64,000 nucleotides of DNA from positions 3,426-67,425 of IMG/VR virus record IMGVR_UViG_2799113183_000001. One strand, 5' to 3'. Under the pieces are notes generated by a model. It was given only the letters and a program-made list of their open reading frames with translations, was not told the DNA's origin and made no database searches. Each line of letters opens with the position of its first letter. The stretch's first letter is position 1. Below are positions 1-3,614 of this stretch, piece by piece. The translations under genes and the position numbers were made by a program. The stretch comes from a virus (lineage: Duplodnaviria; Caudoviricetes).

Positions 1-14
1 GCAGCCTCGCAATC

Positions 15-1175
15 ATGGACGCGGTGCTGGCTGAGAAGCTGTTGGTCCACGTCCCCGAGTATGGGCGCTGGGATGACATCTTTTACGACGGCGCGAATGT
101 CACCGAGGGTATGGCTTACCTGATCGCGAATCAGCTTGAGGAAGATGCGGTAAACGCGAACGCTGGTAAGGCGATGTCGCTGCTCGCGAAGTGGCTTCCT
201 TCGGATTCGGTCAAGAGCGCGGAGCGCCGGAAGTTGCAGATCAATCTCCGGAAGCGTCTCGGCTTGGATCAGCGCACGTACCGAAAGCTGTTGTCCGCTC
301 TGCGTGACCGGCTTGGCCTGCTTGAGACTGACATGTCGCGGAAGCGTTGGGACAAGATCGACTTCTCCAAGCTGCCGGGGCAGGCGCACCGACGCCACGT
401 AAAGGCATTCTGGCGCAACACGGATGGCCGCTATGCGAAGTATCTGGAGTCTCTGGAGCGCGGCGAAGTCAAGGCCAACACGTCCACGCTGTACCCGTAC
501 GAGCTGTACGACATGGCGCAGCGGAGTGGCGAGGCTAGCGCGGCCAACGCGTTGTGGAAGAACCTGCCGGACTACACGCGCGGGAACGACGCCATCGTGA
601 TGGCTGACGTGTCCGGCTCGATGTGGGGACGACCGCTGTCGGTGGCGGTGTCGCTGGCACTGTATTTCGCGGAGCGCAACAAGGGTCCGTTCAAGGGCTA
701 CTTCATGACGTTCTCTGAGAAGCCGGAGCTTGTGACGGTCACGGGACGCAGCCTGGCCGACAAGCTGTCGAACATTCAGCGGTCGTCGTGGGGCTACAAC
801 ACGAACATCGTTGCGGCACTGGATGCAATCTTGCAGGCCGGTATCCGTTCGGGAAGCGTCCCCAAGACGCTCTATATCGTGTCCGACATGGAGTTTGATC
901 AGGCGGCACCGCTTGGTCGCAGCCACAGTTGGTCCACGGTGTTCGAGGCCGCGAAGGCAGAGTATGCCCGCCATGGGCTATATCTGCCGCATATCGTGTT
1001 CTGGAATGTCAACGGGCGCATTGGTAACCAGCCCGCGATTGCCCACGACGGCAATGTGACGTTGGTGTCGGGGTTCTCGCCTACGACGTTCAGCCAGGCC
1101 GTGGAGGGTAAGACTCCGCGCGAGCTGGTGGATTCGGTGGTGAACAGCCCTCGGTACGAGCGGATCGTTGTATGA
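15..1175 (+). CDS. DUF2828-family TROVE/Ro60-like vWA-domain protein (5' end lies upstream of window)
   Basis: Motifs PEYGRWDD, LLAKWLPS, YRKLLSAL, TLYPYEL, MIDAS-like DVSGSM, SDMEFD, IVFWNV, VSGFS; frame is open back to position 3, so the gene is truncated by the window edge. Confidence 0.85.
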   Translation: MDAVLAEKLLVHVPEYGRWDDIFYDGANVTEGMAYLIANQLEEDAVNANAGKAMSLLAKWLPSDSVKSAERRKLQINLRKRLGLDQRTYRKLLSALRDRLGLLETDMSRKRWDKIDFSKLPGQAHRRHVKAFWRNTDGRYAKYLESLERGEVKANTSTLYPYELYDMAQRSGEASAANALWKNLPDYTRGNDAIVMADVSGSMWGRPLSVAVSLALYFAERNKGPFKGYFMTFSEKPELVTVTGRSLADKLSNIQRSSWGYNTNIVAALDAILQAGIRSGSVPKTLYIVSDMEFDQAAPLGRSHSWSTVFEAAKAEYARHGLYLPHIVFWNVNGRIGNQPAIAHDGNVTLVSGFSPTTFSQAVEGKTPRELVDSVVNSPRYERIVV

Positions 1176-1309
1176 CGATCCTGGGACTGCTCGGGGCGCT
1201 TGGTCTCCTATGTGTAGGGGTCCTGGTGGTTTCCGTGTTGGGCTATTTCGTGATGGGGATAGCGGTCAAGATCATTGACTGGCTCGATGATCGACTGAAT
1301 TTGTTGTGA
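1172..1309 (+). CDS. small membrane protein (45 aa)
   Basis: ATGA overlap with the upstream stop; MTILGLLGALGLLCVGVLVVSVLGYFVMGIAVK is one long hydrophobic segment. Confidence 0.6.
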   Translation: MTILGLLGALGLLCVGVLVVSVLGYFVMGIAVKIIDWLDDRLNLL

Positions 1310-1316
1310 CAACTGG

Positions 1317-1346
1317 TTGGGACTGTCGTCCTACCAGTGTTACGGT
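1317..1346 (+). promoter_or_regulatory. possible SigA-type promoter for the ncRNA cluster
   Basis: TTGGGA-N18-TACGGT about 12 nt upstream of the first RNA unit. Confidence 0.3.
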
Positions 1347-1357
1347 AAAGATGGTTG

Positions 1358-1413
1358 TGGACGCATACAGCAACTAAACATACTTTCAATTTGGTGAAAA
1401 TATAATGCGTCCA
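1358..1413 (+). ncRNA. structured RNA unit 1 (GGAC stem + ACAGCAAC motif)
   Basis: TGGACGCAT(1358-66) pairs with ATGCGTCCA(1405-13); ACAGCAACTAAAC follows the 5' strand; inner TTTCA/TGAAA hairpin. Confidence 0.65.
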
Positions 1414-1416
1414 GTG

Positions 1417-1539
1417 TGGACCTTTACAGCAACTAAACGATTGCATAGTAAAGCCGGAGGTACGGGTTCGAGTCCCGTCGCCCGCCGTGAAGGCTGGCGT
1501 GGCTCAAGGGTAGAGCGCTGTTATCAAACCAAGGGTCCA
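1417..1539 (+). ncRNA. Y-RNA-like (YrlA-like architecture) RNA unit 2 with circularly permuted tRNA-like domain
   Basis: TGGACCTTT/AAGGGTCCA terminal stem; ACAGCAACTAAAC; T-arm ACGGG-TTCGAGT-CCCGT(1462-78); acceptor-like stem CGCCCGCC/GGCTGGCG closed by GTGAA; D-arm GCTC-AAGGGTA-GAGC(1502-16). Confidence 0.75.
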
Positions 1540-1554
1540 GTAAATATGCGGTTG

Positions 1555-1613
1555 AGGACATAAGCAGCAACCAAACACAATTGATTGCATTCAATGTCAA
1601 AAATGTGTGTCCT
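1555..1613 (+). ncRNA. structured RNA unit 3 (GGAC stem + GCAGCAAC motif)
   Basis: AGGACATA/TGTGTCCT terminal stem; GCAGCAACCAAAC; inner TTGA..TCAA hairpin. Confidence 0.6.
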
Positions 1614-1628: not shown

Positions 1629-1664
1629 AGCCGACCAGCCTCGGGGGGTGCTGGTCGGCTTTTC
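1629..1664 (+). terminator. intrinsic terminator
   Basis: 11-bp stem AGCCGACCAGC/GCTGGTCGGCT followed by TTT. Confidence 0.8.
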
Positions 1665-1694
1665 TCGTATCTACTCACCTATCAGGGAGAAACA

Positions 1695-3043: not shown

Positions 3044-3614
3044 TGGCTTTCTGGGCCATGGGATTACCGGCAACATCGCGTACTACGGACGGCGACAGAG
3101 CGAGCAGCACGACCCGGCAGAACTAGTCGCCGCACTCGATGCCCTGTTCGCCTTTCCGGAGGTGGTGTCGGTTCGGTGGACGCAGTACACGCCGTACTTC
3201 AATGACGGCGACGCCTGCACGTTCAGTGTTCACGAGGCCCGCACGAAGCTGGTTGATACCGATGAGGATGCGGGCGACTACGAGGATGGGTTCATTAGCT
3301 CGTCGGGCGACTGGCCTTCCGACTATTTCGAGACTCACTCGTACGGTGAGTGGTTCCGCGATCCAAGCACTGGACGGTCAGCGCGAGTGTATCCGGCTGG
3401 TAAGTCTCCGGTGGACTACGACGACCGTGAACTATTCGTCAATGGTGTTGTCCGCAAGGACATTCAGGCCGCGATGCACGCCGTCGAGTCGGCGGTTGAA
3501 GGCGGGCATCACGAAGCGATCCTGCATGAGAAGTTCGGCGACCCGGCAGAAGTGACCGTTGTCCGCGAGGGCGACAGCTACAAGTTCGATGTCGAGCACT
3601 ACGACCACGACTAA
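3033..3614 (+). CDS. conserved phage hypothetical protein
   Basis: RBS GGGGG; WTQYTPYFNDGDACTFSV motif recognised from actinophage proteins. Confidence 0.7.
   Translation: MMTDGFLGHGITGNIAYYGRRQSEQHDPAELVAALDALFAFPEVVSVRWTQYTPYFNDGDACTFSVHEARTKLVDTDEDAGDYEDGFISSSGDWPSDYFETHSYGEWFRDPSTGRSARVYPAGKSPVDYDDRELFVNGVVRKDIQAAMHAVESAVEGGHHEAILHEKFGDPAEVTVVREGDSYKFDVEHYDHD

What the first reader, a model, noticed from the sequence alone, without database searches (positions are those of the whole stretch)
1441..1530. Circularly permuted tRNA mimic inside RNA unit 2
Seen: the order is variable-loop-like AGGT, then a canonical T-arm (ACGGG-TTCGAGT-CCCGT), then an acceptor-like stem CGCCCGCC/GGCTGGCG sealed by a GTGAA loop, then TG and a D-arm (GCTC-AAGGGTA-GAGC). 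The acceptor end is closed and the anticodon arm is replaced by the outer RNA; a vestigial GTAAAGCCGG resembles the 3' half of a Tyr anticodon arm. Established: YrlA Y RNAs carry this D/T/closed-acceptor tRNA-like module. Inference: it may be an elbow decoy or tether for tRNA-directed enzymes such as anticodon nucleases, PNPase or RNase P, which fits a phage that also carries PNK, RNA ligase and 18 tRNAs.
Basis: partly seen in the sequence, partly recalled or inferred. Interest (0 to 1): 0.8.

Follow-up and report, generated by a model that had tools for sequence, protein, structure and literature searches.

The report
tRNA-shaped domain in phage Y-like RNA
A mycobacterial prophage makes a small RNA whose middle part copies the upper body of a tRNA with its acceptor end sealed, attached to a conserved "handle" that probably binds the phage's Ro60-like ring protein; this resembles bacterial YrlA Y RNAs but belongs to a phage-wide variant that I found in no RNA catalogue or paper.

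Summary
Window 1458-1516 reads variable loop, T arm, 8-bp acceptor-like stem closed by GUGAA, U8-G9, then D arm. This is a tRNA body in the permuted order of YrlA Y RNAs.

Rfam YrlA matches only this core: 25.5 bits against a threshold of 69. A covariance model of the whole unit finds 33 strong copies beside homologous genes in very different phages. All 118 matches lie on the gene strand.

Pairing is 91% against 32-44% in slid controls, and 29 of 31 pairs change on both sides. The elbow nucleotides are kept, and the tertiary 15:48 pair covaries as A:U or G:C.

The neighbouring DUF2828/vWA protein has no sequence match to solved structures but is predicted to fold like Ro60.

The RNA lacks the YrlA Ro-binding motif GNCGAA. 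All three tandem units instead carry a stem plus (A/G)CAGCAA.

I read it as the effector domain of a Y-RNA-like particle. Its function as a tether or decoy for tRNA-recognising enzymes is untested. The proposed tRNA-Tyr remnant is not supported.

This scan has already noted the same protein-RNA system in at least 243 other genomes. Verdict: a new variant of a known kind.

The parts
3..1175 (+). 3' 390 codons of the DUF2828 + DUF7788/vWA protein gene. The full 478-codon gene is G000:C1:3164-4600, so it starts upstream of the window. Its product is the probable protein partner of the RNAs and has a predicted Ro60 fold.
   Evidence: Pfam DUF7788 1e-39 and DUF2828. AlphaFold model pLDDT 89.7. Best PDB fold matches over the whole length are all Ro60: 1YVR at E 1.3e-8 and TM 0.57, phage phiLo 9KOP, and Rsr 2NVO. 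No sequence-level PDB match.
1172..1309 (+). 45-codon hydrophobic small ORF between the protein gene and the RNA array. Its status is uncertain.
   Evidence: ORF list. Present in L011, L014 and L016 but absent in L015.
1312..1338 (+). Conserved hairpin just upstream of the RNA array, possibly a processing or start signal.
   Evidence: Fold. In L015 the stem changes ACTGG/CCAGT to ACCGG/CCGGT, a change on both sides.
1358..1413 (+). RNA unit 1: closing stem TGGACGCAT/ATGCGTCCA, ACAGCAA at 1367-1373, and a small apical hairpin.
   Evidence: Sequence, fold, and the same layout in relatives.
1417..1539 (+). RNA unit 2, whole. The handle stem is 1417-1425 paired with 1531-1539. ACAGCAA lies at 1426-1432. 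The tRNA-like domain lies inside.
   Evidence: Model R1 scores 141 bits. Handle stem paired in 88% of cells, with all 9 pairs changing on both sides.
1453..1457 (+). 5' strand (GCCGG) of a short anticodon-stem-like helix. It pairs with 1518-1522 (CTGTT). This is the weakest helix.
   Evidence: 79.6% paired, with many gaps. Within the window clade a U-to-C change keeps the pair, G.U becoming G-C.
1458..1461 (+). Variable-loop equivalent AGGT. Its last U is the partner of A15 in the Levitt pair.
   Evidence: The 15:48 pair is A:U in 17 sequences and G:C in 12, so 29 of 33 are compatible. Shuffles give a mean of 15, and 0 of 20000 reach 29.
1462..1478 (+). T arm: 5-bp stem and loop UUCGAGU.
   Evidence: 100% paired, with 4 of 5 pairs changing on both sides. 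UUCRA is present in 33 of 33 and G53:C61 in 33 of 33.
1479..1499 (+). Acceptor-like stem of 8 pairs (one C.U mismatch) closed by the GUGAA loop. There is no free 5' or 3' end and no CCA.
   Evidence: 90.9% paired, with all 8 pairs changing on both sides. Loop sequences are listed.
1500..1501 (+). U8 and G9 equivalents.
   Evidence: U at position 8 in 31 of 33 homologues.
1502..1516 (+). D arm: 4-bp stem and loop AAGGGUA with A14, G18, G19 and A21.
   Evidence: 97.7% paired. A14 in 32 of 33 and GG in the loop in 32 of 33.
1555..1613 (+). RNA unit 3: stem AGGACA/TGTCCT, GCAGCAA at 1564-1570, and a small apical hairpin. An extra outer helix pairs GCGG (1548-1551) with CCGC (1619-1622).
   Evidence: Sequence, fold, and relatives.
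1630..1665 (+). GC-rich hairpin followed by a U run. Probable intrinsic terminator of the protein-RNA operon, just before the next gene's ribosome-binding site.
   Evidence: Fold. An equivalent hairpin plus T run follows unit 3 in all mycobacterial relatives. The consensus scan missed it because its loop is longer than 8 nt.

Best explanation
Window 1453-1522 is the tRNA-like effector domain of a Y-RNA-like small RNA. That RNA is unit 2 (1417-1539), the middle one of three tandem units transcribed downstream of a Ro60-fold DUF2828/vWA protein gene and ended by a terminator at 1630-1665.

Each unit carries the same handle: a closing stem followed on the 5' side by (A/G)CAGCAA. I infer that the handle is the binding site of the DUF2828 ring protein, by analogy with Ro60 binding the conserved helix of Y RNAs.

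In unit 2 the handle carries a tRNA upper body in permuted order: variable loop, T arm, acceptor stem sealed by a loop, U8, D arm. This body should fold into the tRNA L-shape with a D-loop/T-loop elbow. It cannot be charged while the acceptor end stays sealed.

The most likely role is a docking surface that brings or holds a tRNA-recognising factor at the phage ribonucleoprotein. I put this at roughly 45% among functional readings. Candidates are RNase P, the CCA-adding enzyme, TruB or Dus, PNPase, a tRNA-targeting toxin or defence nuclease, or the phage's own PNK and ligase. The domain could act as a tether, or as a decoy in the phage-host contest over tRNA.

Shown: the sequence anatomy, conservation, covariation, gene linkage and the predicted protein fold. 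Inferred: transcription, protein binding, the 3D fold and the partner.
For: Anatomy.

Link to YrlA: Rfam YrlA aligns model positions 30-81 (T arm, closed stem, D arm) to window 1461-1516, at 25.5 bits and E=0.0039.

Recurrence: model R1 finds 33 matches at E<2e-5 in 24 loci, and 118 of 118 matches at E<=1 lie on the strand of the DUF2828 gene. These include a Felix-O1-like phage (L042:3662-3793), a Cellvibrionaceae contig (L032) and cluster L mycobacteriophages. Cronobacter phage S13 (L037) matches more weakly: 22.6 bits, E = 0.03.

Covariation: 91.3% of cells paired against 32-44% when partners are slid. The covariation score is 0.695 against at most 0.139, and 29 of 31 pairs change on both sides. 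An unfitted alignment gives 92.3% against 36-47%.

Elbow and core nucleotides: U8 in 31 of 33, A14 in 32 of 33, GG in the D loop in 32 of 33, UUCRA in 33 of 33, G53:C61 in 33 of 33. The tertiary 15:48 pair covaries, with 29 of 33 compatible and 0 of 20000 shuffles reaching that.

In-clade change: the T-stem pair G-C becomes A-U on both sides in relatives whose proteins are 89-90% identical.

Protein: Ro60 is the best fold match over the whole length.

Published support. YrlA is a crystallographically proven tRNA mimic modified by TruB and DusA (PMC4201824; bioRxiv 10.1101/312249). In a Listeria phage with a homologous gene, three very abundant unannotated RNAs lie upstream of the Rsr-like gene (PMC12282133), at a position consistent with where I find three handle hairpins in the related phage WIL-1. 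In Bas63 a Ro60-like protein that lies just upstream of the tRNA array counters the Ppl defence (PMC11482910).
Against: There are no expression, end-mapping or binding data for this phage.

The Rfam YrlA threshold is not met (25.5 against 69 bits). The Rsr-binding motif GNCGAA is absent from 1300-1680. So binding to the DUF2828 protein rests only on gene linkage and a shared motif.

A sister group of mycobacterial prophages (L017-L023, proteins 61-64% identical) has three units and no tRNA-like domain. The domain is therefore dispensable for the particle as such.

The helix joining the domain to the handle is weak: 79.6% paired, with a mismatch and two G.U pairs in the window. It is built differently in other lineages.

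The fold energy of the unit alone is not exceptional (z = -1.36). RNAalifold on six close relatives prefers another pairing for the D region.

Part of the covariation across distant phages could reflect repeated capture of different tRNA genes rather than compensation in place.
Confidence: 0.8

Rival explanations
1. The sealed acceptor is only a precursor form. RNase P cuts 5' of the +1 G in the loop, the 3' side is trimmed, and CCA is added. This gives a two-piece RNA with a free tRNA-like 3' end. That end could be a substrate or mimic for enzymes acting on CCA ends, and perhaps even be aminoacylated. This reading is compatible with the main one but changes how the domain works.
For: M. smegmatis YrlA has a 7-bp acceptor stem, is cut by RNase P in vitro, and is cleaved and CCA-tailed in vivo (PMC4201824, read). 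The window's stem has 7 + 1 pairs and the likely host is a mycobacterium. In 5 of 33 homologues, and also in phage S13, the loop begins with NCCA directly after the 7-nt 3' strand. That is about ten times the 1-in-64 chance expectation.
Against: The window's loop is a tight GUGAA with no CCA. The stem has a C.U mismatch at position 3:70. S. Typhimurium YrlA and D. radiodurans Yrn1 are not cleaved. Several homologues have loops of 0-2 nt. The NCCA cases may be inherited from source tRNA genes and are partly related to each other.
Confidence: 0.2
2. The domain is a cis-acting processing or stability element. It would be a tRNA-like 'punctuation' or a nuclease-resistant plug that helps mature or protect the three-unit transcript, with no trans-acting partner.
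For: tRNA-like structures guide RNase P and RNase Z processing in polycistronic transcripts (established knowledge). The unit lies in a tandem array that must be cut into separate RNAs.
Against: The domain sits inside a unit, enclosed by the handle stem, not between units. Cutting at it would split the unit rather than release it. In other phages units with and without the domain stand in any order. Conservation of elbow nucleotides and of the 15:48 tertiary pair is more than a plug would need.
Confidence: 0.07
3. It is a decayed remnant of tRNA genes with no function of its own: the T arm of one tRNA followed by the D arm of the next.
For: Tandem tRNAs are the known false positives of YrlA models. 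In this genome the best RF02553 and some R1 matches are such tRNA dimers in the tRNA array. The phage carries 17 tRNA genes.
Against: The two arms are joined by a perfectly placed 8-bp stem with a 5-nt loop, not by two acceptor halves and a spacer. No anticodon arms flank it. It lies 22 kb from the tRNA array, inside a handle stem. The same architecture recurs with compensatory changes in phages of different bacterial phyla.
Confidence: 0.03
4. It is a permuted tRNA gene, as in the red alga Cyanidioschyzon. The transcript would be circularised and re-opened to make a working tRNA, perhaps using the phage's PNK and RNA ligase.
For: The order is 3' half before 5' half. The phage encodes PNK and an RNA ligase.
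Against: There is no anticodon stem-loop that could be re-formed. The flanks are the conserved handle with ACAGCAA, not anticodon-arm halves. There is no bulge-helix-bulge motif, and bacteria have no splicing endonuclease. ARAGORN and the Rfam tRNA model find nothing.
Confidence: 0.02
5. The stretch is protein-coding: ORF 1405-1563, like the 'hypothetical protein' gene 55 annotated over the same RNA in phage Finnry.
For: A 52-codon ATG ORF exists. Finnry's record annotates a CDS over units 2-3.
Against: Relatives L014-L016 have a 1-nt deletion inside the ORF with no compensating indel, so the frame is not kept. The substitutions preserve base pairs rather than codons. There is no Pfam match.
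Confidence: 0.01

Closest known systems
YrlA Y RNAs of bacteria and cluster C mycobacteriophages (Rfam RF02553; Chen et al. 2014, PMC4201824; crystal structure by Wang et al. 2018, bioRxiv 10.1101/312249)
   Same: Same topology: T arm, then an acceptor-like stem closed by a loop, then U8 and the D arm, with the domain held on a stem formed by the 5' and 3' parts of the RNA. The same conserved elbow and core nucleotides are present. It is encoded next to, and on the strand of, a Ro60-fold protein with a vWA domain. It occurs together with further Y-like RNAs that lack the domain, as YrlB does.
   Different: The Rfam model matches only the core (25.5 bits; threshold 69). The presumed Ro-binding motif GNCGAAN0-1G is absent and is replaced by a stem plus (A/G)CAGCAA. 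The partner protein is Pfam DUF2828/DUF7788, not TROVE, with 11-17% identity to solved Ro60 structures. The units stand in tandem arrays.
Thermus phage phiLo Ro60 with Yrl1 and Yrl2 (PMC12135203; PDB 9KOP, 9L5Y)
   Same: A phage-encoded Ro60-fold protein with adjacent Y-like RNAs on the same strand. 9KOP is among the top fold matches of the window's protein.
   Different: The phiLo RNAs were picked by their CGAA motif, and no tRNA-like domain is described for them (term search of the paper). The protein was found there as a Ro60 homologue in UniProt.
Deinococcus Yrn1 and metazoan Y RNAs with Ro60
   Same: A modular design: a protein-binding closing stem plus a distal effector module. In Deinococcus that module tethers PNPase.
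   Different: Their Ro-binding helix has the GGUCCGA type of sequence. Yrn1's tRNA-like features stand in another order (PMC4201824).
tRNA-like domain of tmRNA, including two-piece permuted tmRNAs
   Same: A T arm and acceptor stem mimic tRNA inside a larger RNA, and permuted gene order exists.
   Different: tmRNA has a free, chargeable CCA end, a reduced D region and a tag reading frame. ARAGORN finds no tmRNA here.
Permuted tRNA genes of Cyanidioschyzon merolae (from my own knowledge)
   Same: The 3' half is encoded before the 5' half, and the acceptor ends are joined by a short linker.
   Different: Those genes yield real tRNAs with anticodon arms after circularisation. Here the anticodon arm is replaced by the handle.

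Membership tests
YrlA (Rfam RF02553) | Score at or above the family's gathering threshold (69 bits) over the whole model | tested here: not met
   25.5 bits, with only model positions 30-81 of 114 aligned.
YrlA (Rfam RF02553) | tRNA-like domain in the order T arm, closed acceptor-like stem-loop, D arm | tested here: met
YrlA (Rfam RF02553) | Nucleotides for tRNA tertiary contacts (U8, A14, G18-G19, U54-U55-C56, A58, G53:C61, 15:48) | tested here: met
   All are present in the window. They are conserved in 29-33 of 33 homologues, and 15:48 covaries. This is sequence-level evidence only.
YrlA (Rfam RF02553) | 5' motif GNCGAAN0-1G, thought to bind Rsr (PMC4201824) | tested here: not met
   No GNCGAA in 1300-1680. 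The conserved motif is CAGCAA, present in 32 of 33.
YrlA (Rfam RF02553) | Encoded within 4 kb of, and on the same strand as, a Ro60 (TROVE) orthologue | tested here: inconclusive
   It lies about 240 nt downstream on the same strand of a protein with a predicted Ro60 fold. That protein matches Pfam DUF2828/DUF7788, not TROVE, and has no sequence match to solved Ro60 structures.
YrlA (Rfam RF02553) | Bound by the Ro protein and modified by TruB and DusA in vivo | not testable with these tools
   Needs immunoprecipitation and modification mapping.
Canonical tRNA | Cloverleaf with open acceptor ends and an anticodon arm | tested here: not met
   ARAGORN finds none. Rfam tRNA scores 14.6 bits on the T arm only, against a threshold of 29.
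DUF2828-linked 'handle' RNAs (uncatalogued; noted repeatedly by this scan) | Closing stem of 5-9 bp followed on the 5' side by N2-5 and (A/G)CAGCAA, on the strand of an adjacent DUF2828 gene | tested here: met
   Units at 1358-1413, 1417-1539 and 1555-1613. A regex survey and model R1 find such units almost only on the gene strand, next to the gene, in most of 67 further loci.
Permuted tRNA gene | The flanks re-form an anticodon stem-loop after processing | tested here: not met
   The flanks are the handle, and no anticodon arm is present.
tmRNA | Free acceptor end plus a tag reading frame | tested here: not met
   ARAGORN finds no tmRNA in the window.

The most novel reading that the evidence does not exclude
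DUF2828 proteins and their handle-tagged RNAs form a second, largely phage-borne Ro/Y-type particle that displays pieces of tRNA as cargo. Here unit 2 carries the elbow and acceptor body, and units 1 and 3 carry small hairpins resembling anticodon arms. The tRNA body would work as a decoy or capture platform against host systems that recognise or damage tRNA (anticodon nucleases, or toxins that modify the acceptor end). Alternatively it hands damaged tRNA to the phage's PNK and RNA ligase.
Probability: 0.3. Interest if true: 0.85.

Novelty: new variant of a known kind. Interest (0 to 1): 0.6.

Why it matters
Ro60 and Y RNAs are a long-studied but functionally opaque pair, and the partner of the tRNA-like domain of YrlA is still unknown. 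This element shows that the same sealed tRNA body has been joined to a different handle and a different, very divergent Ro-fold protein. That protein occurs in at least 705 phage records. They include well-studied laboratory phages of the Felix O1, Listeria P100/A511 and Staphylococcus groups, and cluster L mycobacteriophages.

That offers tractable systems in which to find what the tRNA mimic binds. It would also explain RNA-coding regions annotated as 'hypothetical protein' and the very abundant unannotated phage RNAs seen in Listeria. It may connect to the report that a Ro60-like phage protein counters a defence system.

Presence or absence of the domain between closely related mycobacterial prophages provides a natural comparison.

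Tried and rejected
1. ARAGORN and the Rfam gathering scan gave no tRNA, tmRNA or other family at this site.
2. The sequence search of the protein against PDB gave nothing. Only the fold search was informative.
3. The promoter scan found none. The terminator scan missed the obvious hairpin at 1630-1665 because its loop exceeds 8 nt.
4. The minimum-free-energy pairing of ACAGC (1426-1430) with GCUGU (1517-1521) is rejected. Relatives L014-L016 break it, while the alternative GCCGG/CYG pairing is kept.
5. RNAalifold on six near-identical relatives gave a non-tRNA pairing around the D arm. There is too little variation for it to decide, so I set it aside in favour of the broad alignment.
6. The 'Tyr anticodon remnant' is not supported. 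The 10-mer matches the phage tRNA-Tyr at 8 of 10 positions, but GUA is not conserved in relatives. What is semi-conserved is UAA at the end of a 7-nt loop of an extra hairpin that many homologues have there. Overall, tRNA-Tyr is among the least similar of the phage's tRNAs.
7. No recent origin from any of the phage's own tRNAs is evident. The best match is tRNA-Pro, and it is weak.
8. The protein-coding reading is rejected because of a frame-breaking 1-nt indel in relatives.
9. I could not check whether cluster L phages were among the 22 phages of Chen et al. 2014, because the supplementary tables are not held. The 2020 Annual Review (PMC10870794) is not held either.
10. Paper searches for DUF2828, YrlA since 2019, and 'Ro-like RNA binding protein' found no description of these RNAs. 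A 2026 preprint on bacterial tRNA mimics concerns other families.
11. I did not verify that Bas63 gp130 is a DUF2828 homologue. That is inferred from its Ro60-like fold and its position before the tRNA array.

Full report
**1. What is in the sequence**

The window starts inside a gene that ends at 1175. Then come a 45-codon hydrophobic ORF, a hairpin at 1312-1338, and three tandem hairpin units at 1358-1413, 1417-1539 and 1555-1613. A GC-rich hairpin with a U run follows at 1630-1665, and the next gene starts at 1695.

Each unit begins with a stem strand of the type UGGAC, followed after a few bases by ACAGCAA (GCAGCAA in unit 3). Each ends with the complementary GUCCA.

- AGGU at 1458-1461
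- T arm at 1462-1478
- an 8-pair stem at 1479-1486/1492-1499, with one C.U mismatch, closed by GUGAA
- UG at 1500-1501
- D arm at 1502-1516

The minimum-free-energy and centroid folds of the unit and of the whole 361-nt region return these three hairpins. ARAGORN calls no tRNA here, and Rfam tRNA matches only the T arm.

**2. Relation to YrlA**

A sensitive Rfam scan of 1100-1750 gives one meaningful match. YrlA (RF02553) model positions 30-81 align to 1461-1516 at 25.5 bits and E = 0.0039. Those positions are exactly its T arm, closed stem and D arm.

The score is far below the family threshold of 69 bits because the rest of the model does not align. That rest includes the part thought to bind Rsr. 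The YrlA motif GNCGAAN0-1G (PMC4201824) does not occur anywhere in 1300-1680.

In the whole 67-kb virus record, the other YrlA matches are adjacent tRNA pairs in the tRNA array. These are the known false-positive class.

**3. The neighbouring protein**

The upstream gene (full length 478 codons, G000:C1:3164-4600) matches Pfam DUF2828 and DUF7788 with a vWA domain. It has no sequence match to any solved structure.

An AlphaFold model built from 40 homologues has mean pLDDT 89.7. Its best PDB fold matches over the whole length are all Ro60:
- Xenopus Ro60 1YVR, E 1.3e-8, TM 0.57
- 2I91 and 1YVP
- Thermus phage phiLo Ro60, 9KOP and 9L5Y
- Deinococcus Rsr, 2NVO

Sequence identity to these is 11-17%. 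In cluster L mycobacteriophage records the homologue is annotated 'Ro-like RNA binding protein'. tblastn finds homologues in 705 phage records of many host genera.

**4. Homologues keep the permuted arms**

Cluster L phages Finnry and CELFI have the same three-unit layout downstream of the gene. The middle unit holds a T arm, a closed stem of different sequence, and a D arm. Prophage relatives whose proteins are 89-99% identical have the same layout, with changes on both sides of T-stem and acceptor pairs.

I built a covariance model of the whole unit from six sequences. I searched 85 sources: the window plus 84 homologous loci. There were 118 matches at E <= 1, all on the strand of the gene, and 33 at E < 2e-5 in 24 loci. 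These include a Cellvibrionaceae contig and the Felix-O1-like phage UAB_Phi87. In UAB_Phi87 the element lies inside the tRNA array under a minus-strand 'hypothetical' CDS. Cronobacter phage S13 has one with a long variable arm, which scores poorly for that reason.

**5. Covariation**

On the 33 strong matches, 91.3% of cells form standard pairs. That compares with 32-44% when the 3' partners are slid by 1-3 columns. The covariation score is 0.695 against at most 0.139, and 29 of 31 pairs show changes on both sides.

| Helix | Cells paired |
|---|---|
| T arm | 100% |
| D arm | 97.7% |
| Acceptor | 90.9% |
| Handle | 88.4% |
| Junction helix | 79.6% |

(All.) Because that alignment was fitted to the model, I repeated the count on the unfitted MAFFT alignment of six sequences. 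It gave 92.3% against 36-47%.

The nucleotides that build the tRNA core and elbow are kept:
- U8 in 31 of 33
- A14 in 32 of 33
- GG in the D loop in 32 of 33
- UUCRA in the T loop in 33 of 33
- G53:C61 in 33 of 33

The tertiary Levitt pair 15:48, which was not part of the model's structure, is A:U in 17 sequences and G:C in 12. That makes 29 of 33 compatible. Shuffles give a mean of 15, and 0 of 20000 reach 29.

One caveat applies. Related sequences inflate such counts, and some diversity may come from separate captures of different tRNAs. The in-clade compensations argue for maintenance in place.

**6. What varies**

A sister group of mycobacterial prophages (L017-L023, proteins 61-64% identical) has three units, but its unit 2 is a plain small hairpin. 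Staphylococcus 6ec, Listeria WIL-1 and Bacillus Tsamsa have handle hairpins without a tRNA body in the flanks I read. So the tRNA body is an exchangeable cargo, and it is not required for the particle.

The junction between body and handle also differs between lineages. In the window clade a 3-4-pair helix, GCCGG with CYGNU, takes the place of the anticodon stem. Many other lineages have an additional hairpin just 5' of the T arm, with a 7-nt loop ending in UAA, comparable to the 'V' arm of YrlA, plus a helix made from the flanks.

GUA is not conserved, and the body as a whole is not close to the phage's tRNA-Tyr or to any other of its tRNAs. I do not accept that detail.

**7. Is the acceptor really closed?**

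In the window it is closed: a 5-nt loop with no CCA. However, M. smegmatis YrlA, which has a 7-pair stem, is cut by RNase P and receives CCA in vivo (PMC4201824). In addition, 5 of 33 homologues and S13 encode NCCA directly after the 7-nt 3' strand. Opening of the loop in vivo is therefore a live alternative, which I put at about 0.2.

**8. Mechanism**

I commit to the following reading. The handle binds the Ro-fold protein. The tRNA body folds into an L-shape. It then serves as a docking surface for a factor that recognises the tRNA elbow and acceptor.

The RNP context is supported indirectly by three papers:
- In Listeria phage CKA15, three extremely abundant unannotated RNAs lie just upstream of the Rsr-like gene, and the protein is found in virions (PMC12282133).
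- Thermus phage Ro60 binds adjacent Y-like RNAs and host PNPase (PMC12135203).
- A Ro60-like protein placed before the tRNA array of Bas63 counters the Ppl defence (PMC11482910).

The window also encodes a PNK/phosphatase and an RNA ligase and 17 tRNAs. This fits a role in the contest over tRNA but does not prove one. Which partner is bound, and whether the RNA acts as tether, decoy or repair platform, is inference.

**9. Novelty**

The tRNA-like domain as such is known from YrlA. What I found in no Rfam family and in none of the paper searches is this variant. It combines the (A/G)CAGCAA handle, the DUF2828 partner, tandem arrays and a wide spread in phages.

This scan has noted the same protein-RNA system in at least 243 other genomes, and earlier follow-ups reached the same general reading. 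My tests here were made independently and agree with them. I therefore rate it a new variant of a known kind.

Noticed in passing
window 1384-1399 and 1580-1595: The apical parts of units 1 and 3 are 5-bp stems with 6-nt loops: TTTCA-ATTTGG-TGAAA and ATTGA-TTGCAT-TCAAT. In relatives the equivalent hairpins have 7-nt loops that look like anticodon loops, for example CTTCTAA, CTGCTAA and CTGTTAA. So the other units may mimic anticodon arms.
   Followed up: partly
L017-L023 (for example L017:2754-2809): Mycobacterial prophages with a DUF2828 protein 61-64% identical have the three-unit array, but their unit 2 lacks the T, acceptor and D body. Its small hairpin shares TTGCATA with the window's unit 2. 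This is a natural presence/absence comparison.
   Followed up: partly
L037:3144-3264 and 3274-3386 (Cronobacter phage S13): Two annotated 'tRNAs' of 121 and 113 nt have normal acceptor, D and T arms. Each has a shared insert of about 45 nt (…AACGCAAACTGA[CT]AAGTTTGTATTCAGCA…) where the anticodon arm should be. They lie directly upstream of a handle RNA that carries a tRNA body (3398-3538).
   Followed up: no
L001:2500-2715 (Finnry gene 55); L042:3633-3890 (UAB_Phi87_08); L038:917-1189 (WIL-1 gp032-034): Annotated 'hypothetical protein' CDSs lie over handle RNA units. These are probably mis-annotations of RNA genes.
   Followed up: partly
L032:2749-2760, L052:3059-3246, L053:2904-3012, L093:630-756, L048:2920-3019, L037:3398-3538: The acceptor loops of several homologues start with NCCA right after the 7-nt 3' strand, as if a tRNA 3' end with encoded CCA had been sealed to its 5' end. 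One of them (L052:3059-3246) carries an insert of about 70 nt in the loop.
   Followed up: partly
window 1312-1338: A hairpin precedes the RNA array and is conserved with a change on both sides in L015. Cluster L phages have a different GC-rich hairpin at the same place. It may be a processing or transcription signal.
   Followed up: no
window 1172-1309: A 45-codon ORF for a very hydrophobic peptide lies between the DUF2828 gene and the RNAs. It is present in some close relatives and absent in L015.
   Followed up: no
window 1548-1551 with 1619-1622: Unit 3 is enclosed by an additional outer helix GCGG/CCGC. Cluster L phages and the L017 group keep it too.
   Followed up: no
phage records; PMC12282133: DUF2828 homologues are annotated 'structural protein' in phages CBB and 7t3. 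The Listeria CKA15 homologue was detected in purified virions. The protein, perhaps with its RNA, may therefore be packaged and injected.
   Followed up: no
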